Assembly (NCBI RefSeq): GCF_055900595.2
Contig: NZ_CM148325.1
Reading direction: 5' to 3' (one strand)
Length of the DNA stretch: 64,000 bases
In this document: piece after piece, positions 27,170 to 37,107 of the stretch
Layout of the letters: each line of letters begins with the position of its first letter
How positions within the stretch are numbered: the first letter of the stretch is position 1
Position numbers and translations under genes: made by a program
Notes under the pieces: model-generated
Told to the model about the DNA's origin: nothing
What the model saw: the letters and a program-made list of their open reading frames with translations, nothing else
Database searches by the model: none

Positions 27170-28180
27170 TCAGTGCTGCCGCAAAAAGTCTTCAATGTCA
27201 GTCAGTGAGGATACCCCTTCCATCGGACCTTGTCGCATTACGGCGAGCGCGCCGCTGGCATTTGCATATTGCAGCGCCTTGTGTGCCGGGATACCGGATA
27301 AGAAAAGAGTGACAAACGTTGCGCCAAAGCAGTCGCCTGCACCCGTTGGATCGATTATTTCGATATCGTGGCCTGCAACATGCTGGGCGTGTAATGTTCC
27401 GTTTTTAAGCTTGTAATAGCTGGCCCCACGCTGGGCGCGTTTTATCGCCACATGTTTTACGCCGCCGTGGAGAAGATCGCTAACAATCTGTTCTTCTGAC
27501 AGATTTTTGTGACGCGCGAAGAAAGGGAGTTCGCTTTCGCTGGGGATAAAAATATCCGTATATTCAATCAAATAATCGAGAGCCTGCGCCATTTCAGGAA
27601 TACTCAGCATCTCTTTGCGAATATTGGGATCGAAAGAAACGGTGCCGCCAGCCGATTTGATCGTCGTTATTGCTTTACGCATGACATCGATCATGCGAAA
27701 TGAGAACAATGATGAGCCCACAATATGCAGATGGTTACACTGTTTTAGCAGATCCTTATCAATGTGCTCGGCAGTAAACAAACCGCAGGCGCTGTTAGGG
27801 ATATTAAAGACGAAATCCCGCTGCTGGGGATTTTGATAACTCACGAATGCCGTACCTGTTACGGCATTGTTCATAACATGGATCCCATCGGTAATGACAC
27901 CTTCATGACGGAGGCGCTCTATAATGAGTCGGCCAAAATCATCATTACCAACACATCCGAAGAAGATGGCCCGATGGGACAGTTTTGCCACCTGAGCAGC
28001 AAAAATTGCTGGTGCACCGCTGGGAAATGGCCCGATAAACTCCCCAGGCTGAGTGAATTTTTGATGTGGGTTGCGGGACAAAAACTCGGCCAGCAATTCG
28101 CCCATAGCGCAGATAGTTATTGTCACAAAACCCCTCTCATTCCTGAAGCCTTTCGCGATTGGACCAGGTAAAGCACTCAT
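27170..28180 (-). CDS. PfkB-family carbohydrate kinase (island kinase A)
   Basis: 336-aa ORF; PfkB signature DPTGAGDCFG and the GG dipeptide region; paralogous to 33661-34623; true start may lie at an internal GTG or ATG 18-25 codons downstream (alignment with the paralog starts near TITICAMGELL). Confidence 0.85.
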   Translation of the reverse strand: MSALPGPIAKGFRNERGFVTITICAMGELLAEFLSRNPHQKFTQPGEFIGPFPSGAPAIFAAQVAKLSHRAIFFGCVGNDDFGRLIIERLRHEGVITDGIHVMNNAVTGTAFVSYQNPQQRDFVFNIPNSACGLFTAEHIDKDLLKQCNHLHIVGSSLFSFRMIDVMRKAITTIKSAGGTVSFDPNIRKEMLSIPEMAQALDYLIEYTDIFIPSESELPFFARHKNLSEEQIVSDLLHGGVKHVAIKRAQRGASYYKLKNGTLHAQHVAGHDIEIIDPTGAGDCFGATFVTLFLSGIPAHKALQYANASGALAVMRQGPMEGVSSLTDIEDFLRQH

Positions 28181-28967
28181 TACTGGTATAAAGGATAACG
28201 AAATCAGCCGACTGCAATTGTTGCTGATATTGTTCGTTAATGCTGCGGCTGACGATCACATTTTCTGCCTGATGCAAATGTCCAATGGCAGCCGTTGATG
28301 GCGCAGGATCGGCGGCAACGATAACTGTCTTATTCTGGGCATGATCGAAACAGAGCTGCCAGGCAGCGGCAAGTCTGGGAACGTTGATATTTAAAGTACC
28401 ATCAGCATCCAGATGGCTGATTTCCAGAATGCTGTGTGTAATGGTGAAATGCTGAAGTGCCTGTTCGAGCGGTTTTCCGGCCAGTGCGGTGTCGGGGCGC
28501 AGCATTTCACTGCCAGCCAGTATTATTTCGCCATCAATAAACTGATTTGCCAGCAGCGCATGTTCGGGATCGTTGGTGATCAGACGCAGTTTTTTCACTT
28601 CGCTGAGCAATGGAATGATCTTACGGCAGATTGTCCCATGTCCAAGAAATAGCGTGTCACGATCGCGAATTAACCGTGCGCAATGTCGTGCTATTTCCAT
28701 TTGTTGTGCCAGAGACAATGGCGCGATCGGTTGTATCGCTTCTGGTTCAGAGGAGAGGGGGGTCGCAATAGCACCGCCAAATGATCGCTTTAAATATCCC
28801 TGTTGCTCCAGATAACTGAGATCGCCGCGGATCGTCACGCCAGAGACACCAAGTTGCGCAGATAAGTCATCAACTTTGATTTCACCCTGGGCGGCAACAA
28901 TTTCTGCAATTTTTAATCTGCGTTTCAGTAGGTTAGACGATTTTCTCGGCACGTTAACACTCTTCAT
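28137..28967 (-). CDS. DeoR-family transcriptional regulator
   Basis: 276 aa; N-terminal DeoR-type winged HTH (RRLKIAEIVAAQGEIKVDDLSAQLGVSGVTIRGDLSYLEQQGYL), C-terminal sugar-phosphate-binding-like domain; upstream of kinase A and divergent from the aldolase-transporter operon. Confidence 0.85.
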   Translation of the reverse strand: MKSVNVPRKSSNLLKRRLKIAEIVAAQGEIKVDDLSAQLGVSGVTIRGDLSYLEQQGYLKRSFGGAIATPLSSEPEAIQPIAPLSLAQQMEIARHCARLIRDRDTLFLGHGTICRKIIPLLSEVKKLRLITNDPEHALLANQFIDGEIILAGSEMLRPDTALAGKPLEQALQHFTITHSILEISHLDADGTLNINVPRLAAAWQLCFDHAQNKTVIVAADPAPSTAAIGHLHQAENVIVSRSINEQYQQQLQSADFVILYTSNECFTWSNRERLQE

Positions 28968-29281
28968 TGGCCTTTAATGCGTAACACTATAGCCCCTTGT
29001 ATTTTTCTTTGAAAGTTATCCTTCAATAATATCGACAATTCGAAAAGGAAATCATGGGCCAGAAATCGCAACGAAAATAGCTTAATGCATTGAAAAATAG
29101 ATGAATTAATTCATATTTATGCAGAGGTGTTATTGGTTTCACTTGCAAAGTGAAAAACAAATTAAGTTATTTTTTGTAAGTTATTTTGATGATATTCGAC
29201 ATGTATCACGCTTTTTACCGCTTTTGCTGTGCTAGTTTGCTTTCAAAATGAAAGTGAAGATTCTCTTTCTTCATTTTGTAA

Positions 29282-30163
<882 letters not shown>

Positions 30164-30198
30164 GACGTTGTACCCTACAAAAACAATGAGGATTGTTT

Positions 30199-31089
30199 AT
30201 GAAAAATATTAAATTACTTGGTTCCGCTATGATGGTGAGCCTGGCATTGTTCTCGCAAAGTTCATTGGCAAAAGAGTATAAAATTGGAGCTTCATTATTA
30301 ACACAGCAACACCCTTTTTATATCGACCTCGCAAATGCAATGAAAGAAGAGGCGAAAAAAGACAATGTCAATTTAAGTGTCTCTATTGCCAATCAGGATT
30401 TAAACAAACAGCTTTCTGATGTTGAGGATTTTATTACTAAAAAGGTAGATGCCATTATTATCTCTCCGGTCGATTCGAAAGGTGTCCAGGCAGCGATAAT
30501 TAAAGCCGATAAGGCTGGTATTCCCGTTATCACCGTTGACGTTGCCGCGGAAGGCGTTCCGGTCGTATCGCATGTTGCGACCGATAATTACGCGGGTGGC
30601 GTTGAAGCTGGTAAGTTAATGGGCAAACTTTTGAATGGTAAAGGTACTGTAGCCATTATTTCTTATCCTGCACTACAATCGGTGGTTGCACGCGTTGATG
30701 GCTTTAAGAAAGGATTAAGCGATACGCCGGATATTAAAATTGTTGCTGAACAGCCGGGTATAACGCGGGCTGAAGCGTTAACGACTGCGCAAAACATTAT
30801 GCAGGCCAACGCCAACCTGAATGGTCTGTTTGGCTTTGGTGATGATGCGGCGCTGGCGGCGGTTATAGCGGCGAAATCTGCGCATAACGACAACATCAAA
30901 ATCATTGGTTTTGATGGTATGAAAGAAGCGCGAGATGCCGTTGATAGTGAAAAAACGTTTGCGGCCGTGATTCGGCAATATCCCGATCAAATGGGTGCTA
31001 AAGCCATTGATGCCGCTGTTGATCACCTCAATGGTAAACCGGTAGAGAAAATGATCCCGGTACAACCCGGCGTTTATACAGGTAAATAA
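30199..31089 (+). CDS. periplasmic sugar-binding protein of ABC transporter (RbsB-like)
   Basis: ATG at 30199 with GAGGA Shine-Dalgarno; signal peptide MKNIKLLGSAMMVSLALFSQSSLA then KEYKIGAS...; the track ORF starts 2 codons upstream at an alternative codon. Confidence 0.85.
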   Translation: MKNIKLLGSAMMVSLALFSQSSLAKEYKIGASLLTQQHPFYIDLANAMKEEAKKDNVNLSVSIANQDLNKQLSDVEDFITKKVDAIIISPVDSKGVQAAIIKADKAGIPVITVDVAAEGVPVVSHVATDNYAGGVEAGKLMGKLLNGKGTVAIISYPALQSVVARVDGFKKGLSDTPDIKIVAEQPGITRAEALTTAQNIMQANANLNGLFGFGDDAALAAVIAAKSAHNDNIKIIGFDGMKEARDAVDSEKTFAAVIRQYPDQMGAKAIDAAVDHLNGKPVEKMIPVQPGVYTGK

Positions 31090-31104
31090 TAAACATCTTC
31101 ATTT

Positions 31105-31135
31105 CACAACAAAACGTTATCGACGTTTTGTTGTG
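31105..31135 (+). other. intercistronic stem-loop between binding-protein and ATPase genes
   Basis: 13-bp perfect inverted repeat CACAACAAAACGT / ACGTTTTGTTGTG with a 5-nt loop, read directly. Confidence 0.7.
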
Positions 31136-31149
31136 ACACCGAGGTCATT

Positions 31150-32649
31150 ATGACGGATGTTATTCTTGATGTTTCGCATATTGCGAAGACATTTGGTCAT
31201 GTTCAGGCATTAAAAGATATTACACTCTCTTTACGTAAAGGGCGGGTACATACTTTATTAGGTGAGAATGGTGCCGGTAAATCGACATTAATGAAAATAT
31301 TGGCCGGTGTTTATCCGCCAACCCAGGGAACAATAAAACTACGTGGTGAAACTATCACAATTAATAATCCGCAGCATTCACGTCAGTTAGGGATTGCTAT
31401 TATTTTTCAGGAACTGAGCCTGAGTAATAATATGACAGTGGCGGAAAATATTTATGCCAATAATGAACCGCGACGTTTTGGCATTATTAACGATAAAAAA
31501 ATGCTCGCAGATTGCCAGAATCTCCTCGCGGAACTGGGCATCCCACTGGATCCGCTGGAAATGGTCGGCAATATGTCGATGGCACATAGGCAACTGGTAG
31601 AAATTGCCAAAGCCTTAAGCTATGCAGCAGATGTCGTGATTATGGATGAACCGACATCTTCGCTAAGTGATAATGAAGCAGAGATTCTGTTTAACATTAT
31701 TGAGAAATTAAAGCAGCGAGGTTGTGCGGTTATTTATATCTCTCATCGCATGGATGAAATTATGCGGATTTCAGATGATATTTCGGTGATCCGCGACGGT
31801 GAGTATATCGCTACGCATGAAAAGAAAAACAGTGATATCCAGCATTTGATTGCCCAAATGGTTGGTCGGGAAATGAAAAATATTTGGCCAGCACGTCTTG
31901 GGGAAAAGCCGGATGAAAATGTTCCTGCAAAACTGGAAGTAAAAAACCTTTCCCATCCTTCGCTTTTTAAAGAGGTCAGTTTCGCTGTGCGTCCGGGGGA
32001 AGTCCTCGGATTTTTTGGCCTGGTGGGGGCCGGGCGTTCCGATGTGATGAAGGCGCTATTTGGCCTCGTTTCGTATCACGGGACTGTGTTGATTGATGGT
32101 AAGGAAGTCAGGATCGCTAATCCCAAACAGGCTATTGATCATGGCATTGCTTTTGTGACCGAAAACCGCAAGGAAGAAGGGTTAGTGCTGATGCACGACG
32201 TCAATATGAACACGCACCATGTGGCGTTTCAATATAACGCTTCGCGGATGGGACTCATCAATCACCGACAAGAAGAGGCGAAGACGCTGCAATCTATTGC
32301 CAGAATGAACACTAAAGTGAGTTCTGTACATCAGGCAGTGGGAGCGCTGAGCGGCGGTAATCAACAGAAAATCGTGTTATCCAAGTGGCTGGAGAAAACT
32401 CCGCGTATTTTATTGCTCGATGAGCCAACGCGCGGAGTGGATGTCGGCGCAAAATTTGAAATCTATAACGTGATACGTCAACTGGCTGCGGCAGGGACAG
32501 CAATTATTCTGGTGTCCTCTGAACTGCCAGAGGTCATGGCACTTAGCGATCGTCTGGTGGTAATGCGTAATAAAACGATTGCCGATATTTATTCATGTGA
32601 AAATTTAACGCAGACACAGGTAATGACCGCTGCAACAGGAGTACGTTAA
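31150..32649 (+). CDS. sugar ABC transporter ATP-binding protein with tandem ABC domains (CUT2 type, RbsA-like)
   Basis: 499 aa; Walker A GENGAGKST (N-domain) and GLVGAGRS (C-domain), signature LSGGNQQK, Walker B LLLDEPTRGVD. Confidence 0.9.
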   Translation: MTDVILDVSHIAKTFGHVQALKDITLSLRKGRVHTLLGENGAGKSTLMKILAGVYPPTQGTIKLRGETITINNPQHSRQLGIAIIFQELSLSNNMTVAENIYANNEPRRFGIINDKKMLADCQNLLAELGIPLDPLEMVGNMSMAHRQLVEIAKALSYAADVVIMDEPTSSLSDNEAEILFNIIEKLKQRGCAVIYISHRMDEIMRISDDISVIRDGEYIATHEKKNSDIQHLIAQMVGREMKNIWPARLGEKPDENVPAKLEVKNLSHPSLFKEVSFAVRPGEVLGFFGLVGAGRSDVMKALFGLVSYHGTVLIDGKEVRIANPKQAIDHGIAFVTENRKEEGLVLMHDVNMNTHHVAFQYNASRMGLINHRQEEAKTLQSIARMNTKVSSVHQAVGALSGGNQQKIVLSKWLEKTPRILLLDEPTRGVDVGAKFEIYNVIRQLAAAGTAIILVSSELPEVMALSDRLVVMRNKTIADIYSCENLTQTQVMTAATGVR

Positions 32650-33639
32650 ATGACAGAGAAAACTCTTGCCAGTCCGAAACCTTCGGAAATTCCCATTGCA
32701 AATAATTTTAAAAAAGTCTTCAGGCAATATGGCGGTATCCTCAGTGGAATGGTGGTGTTAATCATTCTGTTCAGTCTTATTAATGACAGTTTTTTTACTG
32801 CCAATAACATTACTAATATTATTCTTCAGGTTTCGATAATTGCAATTACCGCCTATGGAATGACTTATGTACTTTTGCTTGGCGATATTGATTTATCAGT
32901 CGGTTCAACCATTGCATTGATTGGCACATTTGCTGCGCTTGGGGCTTCATGGGGAATTCCATTTATTTTATTGGTCCCATTATCCATTATTGCAGCCCTG
33001 GCTCTGGGGATGATAAATGGTGGCTTGACGGCTATAGCGGGTATCCCTTCGTTTATTGTCACCGTTGCTACAATGGGGATCTTCCGTGGTATCGCTTATA
33101 TAGTGACCGATGGTATGCCCATCATGATTAAAGATGATGCCTTTCTGGCGCTGGGGAATGGAGAATTTCTCTATATACCTATTCCTATCTGGATATTAAT
33201 CATCTTATTGCTGATTAACCACTTCATTCTTACTAAAACAACCTTTGGACGAAAAATTTATATCACTGGTGGTAATAAAGAAGCGGCAGTTTATTCAGGG
33301 ATAAATGTCACCCGCTTGAAAATTAAAGTCTTTATGATTACTGCAGTGCTGGCAGGTATCAGCGGGATGATCCTCGCCTCACGCCTCTATTCCGGGCAAC
33401 CGAATTCCGCGTTGAGCTACGAACTGGATGCTATTGCCGCGGCTGTACTGGGAGGCACCAGCCTGAACGGCGGCTATGGAACGGTGGTGGGGACGGTAAT
33501 CGGGGCATTAACCATCGGCGTTATTAATAATGGCATGAACTTAATGAACGTTCCCTATTTCTATCAGATGGTGGTTAAAGGATTAGTCATTCTTGTAGCC
33601 GTTTATTTTGACGTAAGAAATAAAAGAAAACGTAGCTAA
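32650..33639 (+). CDS. sugar ABC transporter permease (RbsC-like)
   Basis: 329-aa hydrophobic multi-pass protein; the ATG directly abuts the ATPase stop (TAAATG). Confidence 0.88.
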   Translation: MTEKTLASPKPSEIPIANNFKKVFRQYGGILSGMVVLIILFSLINDSFFTANNITNIILQVSIIAITAYGMTYVLLLGDIDLSVGSTIALIGTFAALGASWGIPFILLVPLSIIAALALGMINGGLTAIAGIPSFIVTVATMGIFRGIAYIVTDGMPIMIKDDAFLALGNGEFLYIPIPIWILIILLLINHFILTKTTFGRKIYITGGNKEAAVYSGINVTRLKIKVFMITAVLAGISGMILASRLYSGQPNSALSYELDAIAAAVLGGTSLNGGYGTVVGTVIGALTIGVINNGMNLMNVPYFYQMVVKGLVILVAVYFDVRNKRKRS

Positions 33640-33660
33640 TCATTTCAAGGAATTAATTAT

Positions 33661-34623
33661 ATGAGTAAGGTCTTCACAATTGGAGAAATTCTGGTTGAAA
33701 TTATGGCGAGTAAAATCGGCCAGCCATTTGATCAACCAGGTATCTGGAACGGCCCTTATCCCAGTGGTGCGCCCGCTATTTTTATCGACCAGGTGACACG
33801 TCTTGGTGTTCCGTGCGGCATCATTAGCTGTGTGGGGAATGATGGCTTTGGTGATATTAATATACATCGTCTGGCTGCTGATGGTGTGGATATCAGGGGG
33901 ATTTCAGTCTTACCTCTGGAAGCCACCGGGAGTGCCTTTGTTACTTATCATAACTCTGGCGATCGCGATTTTATTTTTAATATCAAGAATGCCGCTTGCG
34001 GTAAATTATCGGCGCAGCATGTTGATGAAAATATACTGAAAGACTGTACCCATTTTCATATTATGGGCTCATCCCTGTTTTCATTTCATATGGTAGACGC
34101 AGTAAAAAAAGCAGTAACCATCGTTAAAGCAAATGGTGGCGTTATTTCTTTCGACCCGAATATTCGTAAAGAGATGCTCGATATTCCAGAAATGCGTGAC
34201 GCCCTCCACTTTGTTCTTGAGTTAACAGATATCTATATGCCCAGCGAGGGAGAAGTGTTGCTCTTGTCGCCACACTCGACACCGGAGCGTGCAATCGCTG
34301 GTTTTCTTGAAGAAGGTGTTAAAGAGGTGATTGTGAAGCGCGGCAATCAAGGTGCCAGTTACTACTCCGCGAATGAGCAGTTTCATGTTGAGAGCTATCC
34401 GGTGGAAGAAGTTGACCCGACCGGTGCGGGAGACTGCTTTGGTGGCGCGTGGATTGCCTGCCGCCAGCTAGGGTTTGACGCCCATCGGGCATTACAATAT
34501 GCCAACGCCTGCGGTGCACTGGCGGTAACCCGACGTGGCCCAATGGAGGGAACGTCTCGCCTTGCGGAAATCGAAGCGTTCATCCAGCGCCATGACATGT
34601 CCATTCGGGAAGCAGCACAATGA
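33661..34623 (+). CDS. PfkB-family carbohydrate kinase (island kinase B)
   Basis: 320 aa; DPTGAGDCFG signature; shares long identical stretches with kinase A (PYPSGAPAIF, GSSLFSF, SFDPNIRKEML, ALQYANA, GPMEG). Confidence 0.9.
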   Translation: MSKVFTIGEILVEIMASKIGQPFDQPGIWNGPYPSGAPAIFIDQVTRLGVPCGIISCVGNDGFGDINIHRLAADGVDIRGISVLPLEATGSAFVTYHNSGDRDFIFNIKNAACGKLSAQHVDENILKDCTHFHIMGSSLFSFHMVDAVKKAVTIVKANGGVISFDPNIRKEMLDIPEMRDALHFVLELTDIYMPSEGEVLLLSPHSTPERAIAGFLEEGVKEVIVKRGNQGASYYSANEQFHVESYPVEEVDPTGAGDCFGGAWIACRQLGFDAHRALQYANACGALAVTRRGPMEGTSRLAEIEAFIQRHDMSIREAAQ

Positions 34624-35666
34624 AAAACGAAATTTGGTCGTGGATTGGCGATCTCTCGCAGGTTGCCGGAATTAAACACTATGAGTTACGCAGTGGCAGA
34701 TCAAAGGGGACAGAAGCGTTTGATGTCCGTACTGGTGCGGGATTGGCATTTACGGTGGTAAAAGATCGCGCGCTGGATATTGCATGGGCCAGCTACAAGG
34801 ACACTGCGCTCTCTTTTATCACCCCCAACGGCATTGTCGCCCCCGCTTTTTTTGAGTCTCAGGGCAACGGGTTTTTACGTAGCTTCTACGCGGGGTTACT
34901 GACTACCTGCGGACTTAGCTACATTGGCACGCCCTGTGAGGATAACGGAGAAACGCTGGGGTTACACGGGCGTTTGGCTGCGACTCCAGCAGAAGAGGTG
35001 GGGTATCGCACAGAACGGACCGACGACGGCATTGAATTTGTCATCAATGGCAAAGTACGGGAAACACGATTGTTCGGTGAAAATCTGACGCTGGAAAGGA
35101 CCATTCGCTGCCGTTATGGCGAAAATGTGCTGCGCATTGAAGACAAGGTGACTAATCATGGTTTCACCCGCCAGCCGCTGCAAATTCTTTATCACTTTAA
35201 TTACGGCTGGCCTTTATTATCGCCACAGGCAGAAATCTTGCTGTCGGCTAAAAGCGTAACGCCACGAACCCCGCATGCGGCGGAAGGGTTAACCAGTCAT
35301 CTGGAGATTTGTACCCCACAGCCCAGTTTTGACGAGCAGGTTTACTATCTCACGTTGAATAGCGACAGTCAGGGGATGAGTAAAGTTGCGCTGGTGAACG
35401 CCGAACTGGGGTGGGGAATTTACGAGAAATTCGACACCATGCAGCTACCCAACTTTATCCAGTGGAAAAATTTAGGCGCGGGTGAATATGTTATGGGGCT
35501 GGAGGTCAGCAATAGTTTTCCTGACGGTCGTGATAAAGAACGAGCGCAGGGGCGTCTGCCCTTTATAGAGCCAGGGGAAACAAAGACATACTGCTTTGAG
35601 CTGGGAATTGTTGATGGCGATGCTGAAATTAGCGCGTTGAAAGCGGAAATTGCAAGCTACCGTTAG
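34620..35666 (+). CDS. conserved protein of unknown function; possibly an aldose-epimerase-like fold (DUF4432-type), not verified
   Basis: 348-aa ORF whose ATG overlaps the kinase B stop (ATGA); no recognisable catalytic motif by eye; the family assignment is a guess from memory. Confidence 0.6.
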   Translation: MKNEIWSWIGDLSQVAGIKHYELRSGRSKGTEAFDVRTGAGLAFTVVKDRALDIAWASYKDTALSFITPNGIVAPAFFESQGNGFLRSFYAGLLTTCGLSYIGTPCEDNGETLGLHGRLAATPAEEVGYRTERTDDGIEFVINGKVRETRLFGENLTLERTIRCRYGENVLRIEDKVTNHGFTRQPLQILYHFNYGWPLLSPQAEILLSAKSVTPRTPHAAEGLTSHLEICTPQPSFDEQVYYLTLNSDSQGMSKVALVNAELGWGIYEKFDTMQLPNFIQWKNLGAGEYVMGLEVSNSFPDGRDKERAQGRLPFIEPGETKTYCFELGIVDGDAEISALKAEIASYR

Positions 35667-35682
35667 CTAACGGCAATAAAAA

Positions 35683-35709
35683 CGCCGGGCAGCGTTAACA
35701 GGCCCGGCG
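35683..35709. terminator. hairpin between the convergent island operon and accC; likely bidirectional terminator
   Basis: CGCCGGGC / GCCCGGCG inverted repeat, an A-tract on one side and TT on the other. Confidence 0.6.
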
Positions 35710-35757
35710 TTGATTACGTTCTTTGCTAAGCGCGATGAAAACACCGCGCGTCACAAA

Positions 35758-37107
35758 TTATTTTTCCTGAAGACCGAGTTTTTTCTCCAGATAGTGGATG
35801 TTAGTGCCACCATGCTGGAAGTTCTCGTCATTCATGATGCGGATCTGCAGATCAACGTTGGTTTTGATACCGTCGATGATCAGCTCCTGCAGCGCATTCT
35901 TCATGCGGGCAATCGCCACGTCACGGTTTTCACCGTAGCAAATCAGCTTACCGATCATTGAGTCATAGTACGGCGGTACGGTGTAGCCCGCGTAGATATG
36001 AGACTCCCAACGCACGCCAAAACCGCCAGGTGCATGGAAACGGGTGATTTTGCCCGGGCTTGGCAGGAAGGTGTTAGGATCCTCGGCGTTAATACGGCAT
36101 TCCACCGCATGGCCGCGAACGTGAACTTCTTCTTGCTTGATCGACAGCGGCTGACCAGCAGCAATACGCAGTTGTTCTTTGATCAGGTCAACACCGGTGA
36201 TCATTTCAGTAACCGGGTGTTCTACCTGAATACGGGTGTTCATTTCGATGAAATAGAACTCGCCGTTTTCGAACAGAAACTCGAAAGTACCTGCACCGCG
36301 ATAGCCGATATCAACACACGCTTTAGCACAACGTTCACCGATGTAGCGACGCAGTTCCGGGGTAATGCCCGGTGCTGGCGCTTCTTCGACCACTTTCTGG
36401 TGACGACGCTGCATAGAGCAGTCACGTTCCGCCAGATAGATAGCGTTGCCCTGACCGTCCGCCAGTACCTGGATCTCGACGTGGCGAGGATTTTCCAGGT
36501 ATTTCTCCATGTAAACCATGTCGTTATTGAAAGCGGCTTTCGCTTCCGCACGGGTCATGGAGATGGATTGCGCCAGTTCAGCGTCGCCGCGTACTACACG
36601 CATACCACGACCGCCGCCGCCGCCGGAGGCTTTGATAATCACCGGGTAACCAATGCGTTTTGCAATGGCGCGGTTTTTATCCATATCGTCGCCCAGCGGG
36701 CCGTCAGAACCTGGTACGCAAGGAACGCCCGCTTTTTTCATCGCCGCGATTGCTGATACTTTATCGCCCATCAGGCGAATGGTTTCGGCTTTCGGGCCGA
36801 TGAAGATAAAGCCGGAGCGTTCAACCTGCTCGGCAAAATTGGCGTTCTCGGAGAGGAAGCCGTAACCCGGATGGATTGCTACTGCGCCGGTGATTTCAGC
36901 GGCGCTGATGATTGCCGGGATGTTCAGATAACTTTTTACTGACGGAGCAGGGCCGATACAGACCGTTTCGTCTGCCAGTAATACGTGTTTTAGATCGCGA
37001 TCCGCACTGGAGTGCACAGCGACAGTCTTGATGCCCAGTTCTTTACAGGCACGAAGAATACGCAATGCAATCTCGCCGCGGTTGGCAATAACAATTTTAT
37101 CCAGCAT
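35758..37107 (-). CDS. accC: biotin carboxylase subunit of acetyl-CoA carboxylase
   Basis: 449 aa from [33 protein letters not shown]; the track ORF carries a 13-codon upstream extension. Confidence 0.97.

What the first reader, a model, noticed from the sequence alone, without database searches (positions are those of the whole stretch)
31105..31135. 13-bp perfect stem-loop between the binding-protein gene and the ATPase gene
CACAACAAAACGT-TATCG-ACGTTTTGTTGTG sits in the 60-nt gap after the periplasmic binding-protein gene. Such intra-operon hairpins in ABC importer operons often act as 3' stabilisers or partial terminators that raise binding-protein transcript abundance relative to the membrane components.
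Basis: seen in the sequence. Interest (0 to 1): 0.35.

Follow-up and report, generated by a model that had tools for sequence, protein, structure and literature searches.

The report
Conserved mRNA hairpin after tagatose binding-protein gene
A stable RNA hairpin just after the sugar-binding-protein gene of the E. coli tagatose transporter operon is kept by evolution through matching base changes, and it most likely shields that part of the mRNA from degradation so that more binding protein than pump is made, which is a well-known trick in a newly characterised operon.

Summary
A perfect 13-bp palindrome (14 Watson-Crick bp, 31104-31136) lies in the 60-nt gap between the binding-protein and ATPase genes. 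It is the longest perfect hairpin in the window, and no shuffle of the window matched it. The locus is the D-tagatose operon tagYABCDE of E. coli (Nissle/B2 type); the gap separates tagA (binding protein) from tagB (ATPase).

Thirteen distinct versions from about eight lineages, whose synonymous sites are near saturation, all keep the stem. Five base pairs change on both sides. Every one-sided change gives a G·U pair that works only on the mRNA strand. Loop length varies. So it is a selected RNA structure, not a DNA operator.

It is single-copy, so not a REP element. No version has a U-tract, so it is not an intrinsic terminator. Published dRNA-seq finds no internal promoter.

Orthologous operons in other bacterial classes carry unrelated hairpins at the same junction, typically about 14 nt after the binding-protein stop codon.

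The best reading is a protective 3' stem-loop for differential operon decay, as in malE-malF. It is a new member of a known kind. Function is inferred, not measured.

The parts
31104..31136 (+). RNA stem-loop in the tagA-tagB spacer of the tagYABCDE mRNA: 14 Watson-Crick pairs (5' arm 31104-31117, 3' arm 31123-31136) plus a U·G closing pair (31118·31122), loop ATC/TATCG
   Evidence: Sequence. Fold -22.6 kcal/mol in context, about -18.4 for the isolated stem. 182/182 cells paired over 14 pairs in 13 variants, 5 pairs with changes on both sides, 0/500 shuffles reaching that count. Covariance model scores 86 bits on + and 37 bits on -.
31095..31103 (+). Conserved pyrimidine-rich 5' flank of the hairpin (ATCTTCATT here; ATCTTCACC in most lineages), in the 3' untranslated tail of tagA. 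Role unknown.
   Evidence: Alignment A4 columns 9-17: T10, C11 and T13 invariant, C14, A15 and C17 nearly invariant, at saturating synonymous divergence. Pairing with the tagB Shine-Dalgarno is possible but has no covariation support and is no better than shuffled flanks.
31141..31144 (+). Shine-Dalgarno GAGG of tagB, 4 nt after the hairpin and 5 nt before the ATG at 31150
   Evidence: Sequence. GAGG or GGAG is conserved at this position in all 13 variants, with fixed spacing to the hairpin.
30199..31089 (+). tagA, periplasmic substrate-binding protein (296 aa): the upstream segment presumed to be protected
   Evidence: NCBIfam RbsB-like hit. RefSeq annotation of an identical locus. Naming from PMC12226905.
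31150..32649 (+). tagB, sugar ABC transporter ATP-binding protein (499 aa): the first gene of the downstream segment
29309..30163 (+). tagY, class II tagatose-bisphosphate aldolase, first gene of the operon. The only TSS of the operon lies 64 nt upstream (about 29245).
   Evidence: TSS from dRNA-seq in PMC12226905.
32650..35666 (+). tagC (permease, 32650-33639), tagD (tagatose kinase, 33661-34623), tagE (aldose 1-epimerase family, 34620-35666): the rest of the polycistron
28137..28967 (-). tagR, DeoR-family repressor, divergently transcribed. Considered and rejected as the binder of the palindrome.

Best explanation
The palindrome is transcribed as part of the single tagYABCDE mRNA and folds into a 14-15 bp stem-loop starting 15 nt after the tagA stop codon. 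That is probably just outside the footprint of a terminating ribosome, so the hairpin can stay folded while tagA is translated. When endonucleases cut the poorly protected downstream part (tagB-E), 3'-to-5' exonucleases (PNPase, RNase II) degrade back to the base of the stem and stall there. The tagY-tagA segment then outlives tagBCDE, which raises the ratio of binding protein (and aldolase) to ATPase and permease. This is the differential-operon-decay mechanism known from malE-malF. Shown here: the structure exists, is selected as RNA on the mRNA strand, is not a terminator, REP element or operator, and is functionally replaced by unrelated hairpins in other taxa. Inferred: the exonuclease-barrier function and its effect on stoichiometry.
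For: (1) Selected RNA structure. In 13 distinct sequences from about 8 lineages with 4-fold-site divergence of 0.52-0.69, all 182 cells of the 14 core pairs are paired. Five pairs change on both sides (A-U to G-C and C-G to U-A in L105, basal U-A to A-U in L016, apical pairs). 0/500 shuffles reach that count, and slid controls are 38-51% paired. (2) mRNA strand. All 8 one-sided cells are G·U or U·G on the + strand and would be A·C mismatches on the - strand. The covariance model scores 68-86 bits on + against 17-38 bits on -. (3) Loop length varies between 3 and 5 nt, so arm spacing varies. (4) One transcript. dRNA-seq found only two TSSs in the 8.5-kb region, upstream of tagY and of tagR (PMC12226905). 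(5) No U-tract: 0 T in the 8 nt after the stem here and at most 3 in any variant. (6) Convergence. 44 of 65 one-per-species orthologous loci with a gap of at least 40 nt have a significant hairpin of unrelated sequence, at a median of 14 nt after the binding-protein stop against 72.5 nt before the ATPase start (34 against 9 closer to the stop). Only 5 have T-rich tails. (7) Precedent. In five E. coli ABC importer operons the stabilised segment is always the binding-protein gene, bounded by stable hairpins without U-tracts that show raised sequence conservation (PMC5927463). (8) All 1420 E. coli complete genomes that carry the cluster retain the element at 91.7% identity or more.
Against: There is no direct measurement: no 3'-end mapping, half-lives or coverage values could be obtained. 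Published qRT-PCR reports more than 1000-fold induction for tagY, tagA and tagB alike and more than 40-fold for tagC-E. If anything this places the visible step after tagB rather than after tagA, but these are fold-changes relative to glucose, not absolute levels. The stem is AU-rich (about -18 to -20 kcal/mol), which is less stable than REP-type stabilisers. The fixed 59-60 nt spacer, the fixed 4-nt distance to the tagB Shine-Dalgarno and the conserved 5' flank suggest additional constraints that a simple exonuclease barrier does not require.
Confidence: 0.6

Rival explanations
1. Translation throttle or 5' protector for tagB. The hairpin ends 4 nt before the tagB Shine-Dalgarno (position -14 relative to the ATG). 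It may occlude the ribosome standby site, or, together with the pyrimidine-rich 5' flank, sequester the SD and lower ATPase translation. Alternatively, after cleavage 5' of it, it may act as a 5'-terminal stem that protects tagBCDE from RNase E (papBA-type). Either could act alongside the 3' protector role.
For: Spacer length (59-60 nt), hairpin-to-SD distance (4 nt) and the 5' flank (A)TCTTCACC are conserved at saturating divergence. The SD is predicted to be mostly paired, with P(unpaired) of 0.02-0.30. Dar & Sorek report fewer ribosomes on the unstable genes.
Against: Neither candidate SD-pairing helix shows any change on both sides, and only 85-86% of cells pair. Native flanks do not occlude the SD more than shuffled flanks: 18-60% of shuffles do as well. 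In other taxa the analogous hairpins sit near the binding-protein stop and far from the ATPase start (median 14 against 72.5 nt), which argues for a role tied to the upstream gene.
Confidence: 0.15
2. Partial intrinsic terminator (attenuator) that stops a fraction of RNA polymerases after tagA.
For: A stable hairpin sits in an intergenic gap inside an operon. Five of the 44 analogous hairpins in other taxa (the Pleomorphomonas group) do have T-rich tails.
Against: There is no U-tract. The stem is followed by CACCGAGG (0 T in 8 nt), and none of the 13 variants has more than 3 T. The stem has only 5 G-C pairs out of 14. The terminator scan did not report it. By contrast, three of the four other long perfect hairpins in the window carry the A and T tracts of bidirectional terminators.
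Confidence: 0.06
3. Double-stranded DNA operator: an auxiliary binding site for the DeoR-family repressor TagR (DNA looping to the promoter 1.9 kb upstream) or for another dimeric regulator.
For: It is a perfect palindrome. Each arm contains ACAAAACG, an 8-mer also present in the predicted operator tagO2 (CTTACAAAACGAAG in most lineages). DeoR-family repressors are known to use remote auxiliary operators (established knowledge: deo and glpD).
Against: Arm spacing varies by 1-2 bp between lineages. All one-sided substitutions break the dyad symmetry but keep G·U pairing on the mRNA strand. The non-conserved apical positions covary to stay complementary, which a dsDNA site does not require. L105 changes the shared 8-mer to GTAAGGCG in one arm. 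The hairpin lacks the CTTTC/GAAAG inverted repeat that dominates the conserved promoter blocks.
Confidence: 0.04
4. Recognition site for a specific trans-acting RNA factor, such as RNase III processing of the 15-bp stem (possibly stacked on the weak outer helix) or ProQ, Hfq or sRNA binding. This would explain the near-invariant stem sequence.
For: The 12-bp core is identical in 7 of about 8 lineages although 4-fold sites differ by about 0.6.
Against: L105 shows that the core sequence can change while pairing is kept. Unrelated hairpin families at the same junction in other clades show the same pattern of conserved stem sequence and variable loop at 4-fold divergence up to 0.64, so this is generic to the class. 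A 15-bp stem is shorter than typical RNase III substrates (established knowledge). There is no Rfam match.
Confidence: 0.08

Closest known systems
malE-malF intercistronic stabiliser of the malEFG operon (Newbury et al. 1987, as summarised in PMC5927463)
   Same: It lies in the spacer directly after the substrate-binding-protein gene of an ABC importer operon, as a stable stem-loop inside a polycistronic mRNA. The proposed role is the same: to block 3'-5' exonucleases so that the binding-protein segment outlives the membrane and ATPase genes.
   Different: The mal element is made of REP sequences, which are GC-rich and present in hundreds of copies per genome. The tag hairpin is a unique, AU-rich, single-copy sequence. 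Here the protected segment would carry two genes (tagY-tagA). The function of the tag hairpin has not been measured.
Protective 3' hairpins of differentially decaying operons (Dar & Sorek 2018, PMC5927463; ABC examples pot, art, his, met, mal)
   Same: It is a stable hairpin without a U-tract at the 3' boundary of the segment needed in higher amounts. The binding-protein gene is the favoured one. It is conserved across related genera with raised sequence conservation.
   Different: Most of their structures lie inside the coding region of the downstream gene, on average 107 nt in. This one is intergenic. The tag operon is absent from K-12, so it was not in their data.
Intercistronic hairpins of the Rhodobacter capsulatus puf operon
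   Same: Non-REP, operon-specific stem-loops set segmental mRNA half-lives and so subunit stoichiometry (established knowledge; cited in PMC5927463).
   Different: A different organism and gene class, with GC-rich stems.
Rho-independent terminators
   Same: A stem-loop at the end of a gene.
   Different: There is no U-tract, the stem is AU-rich, and the operon's downstream genes are needed and are induced.

Membership tests
Protective 3' stem-loop of differential operon decay (malE-malF / Dar & Sorek type) | Stable stem-loop inside a polycistronic transcript, at the 3' boundary of the gene needed in higher amount | tested here: met
   The hairpin starts 15 nt after the tagA stop. The operon has a single TSS according to dRNA-seq in PMC12226905. 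dG is -18 to -23 kcal/mol, z = -4.2.
Protective 3' stem-loop of differential operon decay (malE-malF / Dar & Sorek type) | [quoted passage not shown] | tested here: met
   0 T in the 8 nt after the stem, and at most 3 in any of the 13 variants.
Protective 3' stem-loop of differential operon decay (malE-malF / Dar & Sorek type) | Structure conserved between related species | tested here: met
   182/182 cells paired, 5 pairs with changes on both sides, 0/500 shuffles reaching that count, at 4-fold divergence of 0.52-0.69.
Protective 3' stem-loop of differential operon decay (malE-malF / Dar & Sorek type) | A stable RNA 3' end maps at the foot of the hairpin, and the upstream segment has the longer half-life | not testable with these tools
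   This needs Term-seq or 3' RACE and a rifampicin chase. The dRNA-seq data are in GEO GSE280463, but reads cannot be accessed here.
Protective 3' stem-loop of differential operon decay (malE-malF / Dar & Sorek type) | The effect depends on 3'-5' exonucleases stalling at the stem | not testable with these tools
   This requires pnp and rnb mutants.
REP / BIME elements | Dispersed repeat with many copies per genome and a shared consensus | tested here: not met
   It occurs only at the tag locus in 1420 genomes. The two 'places' per genome are the palindrome matching its own reverse strand. There is no other copy in the window or the fetched loci.
Rho-independent terminator / attenuator | G+C-rich stem immediately followed by a U-tract | tested here: not met
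   5 G-C pairs out of 14, no T-run, and not reported by the scan.
TagR (DeoR-family) operator | Match to the conserved operator blocks of the tagR-tagY region, with dyad symmetry and spacing kept as dsDNA | tested here: not met
   It shares only the 8-mer ACAAAACG with tagO2 and lacks CTTTC/GAAAG. Spacing varies, and substitutions are asymmetric but G·U-compatible. Binding itself was not tested.
Any curated Rfam family | Covariance-model match | tested here: not met
   No match with E up to 1 in 28000-37000.

The most novel reading that the evidence does not exclude
The hairpin, its conserved 5' flank (A)TCTTCACC and the fixed 4-nt distance to the tagB Shine-Dalgarno form one composite module. 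The module would both cap the tagY-tagA segment and set tagB translation, or serve as a sequence-specific docking or processing site for a trans-acting factor. On this reading the near-invariant 12-bp core reflects recognition rather than stability alone.
Probability: 0.12. Interest if true: 0.5.

Novelty: new member of a known kind. Interest (0 to 1): 0.3.

Why it matters
The tagatose operon was characterised only in 2022-2025 and is being developed as an inducible expression system for the probiotic E. coli Nissle 1917. The two papers describe its promoter, CRP site and operators, but nothing downstream of them. This hairpin is a further conserved cis element with clean covariation support, and it probably sets the binding-protein to transporter ratio. 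It would need to be kept or deliberately altered when the cluster is moved to other hosts. It could also serve as a compact, non-repetitive mRNA stabiliser or insulator part. More generally, orthologous operons from several bacterial classes have unrelated hairpins about 14 nt after the binding-protein stop. This extends the 'stabilise the binding-protein segment' rule well beyond the E. coli K-12 operons where it was measured.

Tried and rejected
(1) REP-like repeat. Rejected: single-copy in the window, in E. coli genomes and in all loci.

(2) Intrinsic terminator. Rejected on sequence.

(3) TagR or other dsDNA operator. I compared the hairpin with the conserved blocks of the tagR-tagY region. 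Only an 8-mer is shared, and the substitution pattern argues for RNA.

(4) CRP site. TCACA...TGTGA is in the wrong orientation and spacing (by inspection).

(5) SD-sequestering outer helix, in two registers. No covariation and no better than shuffled flanks.

(6) Spot 42 pairing. An 8-nt complementarity between AACATCTT in the 5' flank and Spot 42, recalled from memory, is not conserved in other lineages. I did not pursue it.

(7) The near-invariant stem core looked like evidence for sequence-specific recognition (note). L105 and the benchmark in other clades show it is generic for this class.

(8) A terminator-like hairpin inside tagB (31991-32011) as an explanation for the reported drop after tagB. 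Its stem is not conserved and the T-run encodes GFFG.

(9) Five contig look-ups returned only E. coli or K. spallanzanii types and added no new lineages.

(10) Rfam: no hits.

(11) The metagenome scan was not run. It was judged unnecessary after the ATPase-guided look-ups gave enough lineages.

Full report
OBSERVATION. CACAACAAAACGT lies at 31105-31117, the loop TATCG at 31118-31122, and ACGTTTTGTTGTG at 31123-31135. T31104 and A31136 add a fourteenth Watson-Crick pair. RNAfold closes the loop with U31118·G31122, giving a 15-bp stem with a 3-nt loop. The 71-nt context folds at -22.6 kcal/mol, z = -4.2, and 1 of 200 dinucleotide shuffles folds as well. It is the longest perfect hairpin in the 64-kb window. 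None of 60 dinucleotide-preserving shuffles of the window had a perfect stem of 13 bp or more. Three of the four other long hairpins in the window carry the A and T tracts of bidirectional terminators; this one does not.

CONTEXT. The flanking ORFs are an RbsB-like periplasmic binding protein (30199-31089) and a 499-aa sugar ABC ATPase (31150-32649), separated by 60 nt. The neighbourhood reads: DeoR regulator, class II tagatose-bisphosphate aldolase, binding protein, ATPase, permease, tagatose kinase, aldose-1-epimerase-like protein. It is inserted between yhdT-panF and accBC. This is the D-tagatose utilisation cluster of E. coli Nissle 1917 and the B2 phylogroup (PMC9720028), later named tagK, tagR and tagYABCDE (PMC12226905). 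It is present in 1420 of 5426 complete E. coli genomes. dRNA-seq of tagatose-grown Nissle found only two transcription start sites in the whole 8.5-kb region, upstream of tagY and of tagR. The spacer is therefore internal to one polycistronic mRNA and holds no promoter. Neither paper mentions a hairpin, stem-loop or the tagA-tagB spacer. Rfam has no match.

IS IT A REPEAT? No. A 60-nt query of the spacer hits only the genomes that carry the cluster. Each has two 'places', which are the palindrome and its own reverse strand. No genome has lost it: all 1420 are at 91.7% identity or more. A covariance model built from the family finds no other copy in the window or in 37 other loci.

COMPARATIVE EVIDENCE FOR THE STRUCTURE. 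I collected the tagA-tagB spacer from these sources:
- E. coli haplotypes;
- a one-genome-per-species scan with a binding-protein alignment;
- Citrobacter farmeri;
- five unnamed lineages reached through ATPase homologues.

Thirteen distinct sequences carry the same element (alignment A4). They come from about eight lineages whose four-fold degenerate sites in tagA plus tagB differ by 0.52-0.69, which is close to saturation. Over the 14 core pairs, all 182 cells are paired. Five pairs show changes on both sides, and 0 of 500 shuffles reach that count. Sliding the 3' partner by 1-3 columns drops pairing to 38-51%.

The most informative variant is L105, with CACAGTAAGGCGC-TTCG-GCGTTTTACTGTG. It has two full compensatory exchanges in the stem core (A-U to G-C and C-G to U-A) and two A-to-G changes that give G·U pairs. 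Enterobacter sp. ENT03 flips the basal pair from U-A to A-U. The apical pairs take the forms U-A, U·G, C-G and A-U.

All eight one-sided cells are G·U or U·G on the + strand. On the - strand, or as a dyad-symmetric DNA site, they would be mismatches. The loop is 3, 4 or 5 nt, so the spacing of the arms is not fixed. The model scores 68-86 bits on the + strand and 17-38 on the - strand. Together these results show selection on an RNA stem-loop in the mRNA, not on a double-stranded operator.

THE INVARIANT CORE. Seven of the eight or so lineages keep the 12-bp core CACAACAAA(A/G)CG / CGTTTTGTTGTG unchanged at saturating synonymous divergence. At first this looked like evidence for sequence-specific recognition (note). 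Two results defuse it. First, L105 shows the sequence can change if pairing is kept. Second, the unrelated hairpin families at the same junction in other clades behave the same way, with conserved stems and variable loops: Brevibacillus at four-fold divergence 0.64, Gilliamella at 0.49, Trabulsiella at 0.34-0.45. Dar & Sorek also reported raised sequence conservation over protective structures. The substitutions seen (A-U to G·U to G-C) follow the wobble-intermediate path expected for a strongly selected stem.

THE SAME JUNCTION IN OTHER TAXA. The binding-protein-then-ATPase order holds in nearly all 80 loci. More distant Enterobacterales carry different hairpins in the gap: Trabulsiella, Klebsiella spallanzanii, Serratia (a REP-like element), Budvicia, Sodalis and Gilliamella. 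So do alpha- and beta-proteobacteria and Brevibacillus. Of 65 one-per-species loci with a gap of at least 40 nt, 44 have a perfect-stem hairpin significant against shuffles at p of 0.05 or less. Several more have bulged stems that the simple search missed. These hairpins sit at a median of 14 nt after the binding-protein stop codon and 72.5 nt before the ATPase start. 34 are closer to the stop and 9 closer to the start; for gaps of at least 80 nt the split is 27 against 6. Only 5 are followed by 5 or more T in 8 nt. Where the gap is only 13-20 nt (Cardiobacterium, Caballeronia) there is no hairpin. Repeated independent acquisition, anchoring to the end of the binding-protein gene and the lack of U-tracts all point to a role at the 3' end of the upstream segment.

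MECHANISM. The best-supported explanation is a protective 3' stem-loop for differential operon decay. After endonucleolytic cleavage in tagB-E, 3'-5' exonucleases stall at the stem, and the tagY-tagA segment persists. This is the malE-malF mechanism. Dar & Sorek 2018 generalised it: in five E. coli ABC importer operons the stabilised gene was always the binding-protein gene. In 26 of 34 operons where the upstream gene is the stabilised one, the stable 3' end lay just after a hairpin that lacked a U-tract. The tag hairpin meets every sequence-level criterion of that class. The start of the stem, 17 nt from the first base of the stop codon, probably lies outside a terminating ribosome's footprint; this is an inference. 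What is not shown is the function itself. The published qRT-PCR gives only induction ratios relative to glucose: above 1000-fold for tagY, tagA and tagB, and above 40-fold for tagC-E. Those ratios neither confirm nor exclude a tagA:tagB step. I put 0.6 on this mechanism, and about 0.9 on the narrower statement that this is a selected mRNA structure.

RIVALS.
- Partial intrinsic termination is unlikely. There is no U-tract in any variant, the stem is AU-rich, and the scan did not flag it.
- A TagR operator is unlikely. The arms share only ACAAAACG with the predicted tagO2 and lack the CTTTC/GAAAG repeats of the conserved promoter blocks. The substitution pattern is RNA-like.
- A translational role on tagB remains possible as an add-on. 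The spacer length, the 4-nt hairpin-to-SD distance and the 5' flank (A)TCTTCACC are all conserved. However, two candidate SD-pairing helices show no covariation, and native flanks occlude the SD no better than shuffled ones.
- A trans-factor or RNase III site cannot be excluded, but nothing requires it.

VERDICT. The element is a new, well-supported member of a known kind. It is modestly interesting because the operon is newly characterised and used in probiotic engineering, and because hairpins recur at this junction across phyla.

Noticed in passing
window 31991-32020 (+), inside tagB: A terminator-like hairpin (9-bp stem GTCCGGGGG...CCTCGGAT followed by TTTTTTGG) was flagged by the scan, 840 nt into the ATPase gene. 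The T-run encodes the conserved GFFG of GEVLGFFGLVG, and the stem is not kept in the ten other sequences compared, so it is most likely a by-product of coding.
   Followed up: yes
window 29171-29179 and 29006-29014 (tagR-tagY intergenic region): Besides the two published operators (tagO1 at 29239-29257, tagO2 at 29263-29281), two further blocks are invariant across the aligned genera: TTTTGTAAGTT, a third copy of the tagO2 core about 100 bp upstream, and CTTTGAAAG near the tagR start. They may be additional TagR sites not described in PMC12226905.
   Followed up: partly
L009-L013, L017 (Trabulsiella, K. spallanzanii, Serratia, Budvicia), binding-protein/ATPase spacer: Binding proteins 79-91% identical to tagA are followed by longer spacers (92-188 nt) with quite different hairpins. 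Trabulsiella and Klebsiella share a TTCAGG.../...CCTGAA stem base, and Serratia has a REP-like CCCTCTCCC/GGGAGAGGG element. So the structure turns over at a fixed junction.
   Followed up: partly
L007 (E. coli E69, CP089930.1) against the window and L002: The tag cluster exists in E. coli as deeply diverged alleles. Four-fold sites differ by 0.10 between the window and the common B2-type allele, but by 0.34-0.37 for strain E69. This suggests separate acquisitions or an origin in another Escherichia lineage. Only 9 of the 1420 genomes match the window's allele at 99% or more over 801 nt.
   Followed up: no
L006 (E. coli N61, NZ_CM165883.1), positions 951-1793: tagB is truncated after 342 nt by an IS1A insertion and annotated as a pseudogene, so the tagatose transporter is inactivated in this CSF isolate.
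   Followed up: no
window 27170-28105 (-) and 33661-34623 (+): The locus carries two tagatose-kinase paralogues: tagK next to tagR, and tagD in the operon. Both hit NF049991, at 347 and 414 bits against a cutoff of 420. The role of tagK is untested according to the papers.
   Followed up: no
window 15700-15728 (+): Another 11-bp perfect hairpin without flanking A/T tracts (GCGTTATTTCG-AAAGCAG-CGAAATAACGC) lies inside a 111-aa ORF (15596-15931). It was not examined further.
   Followed up: no
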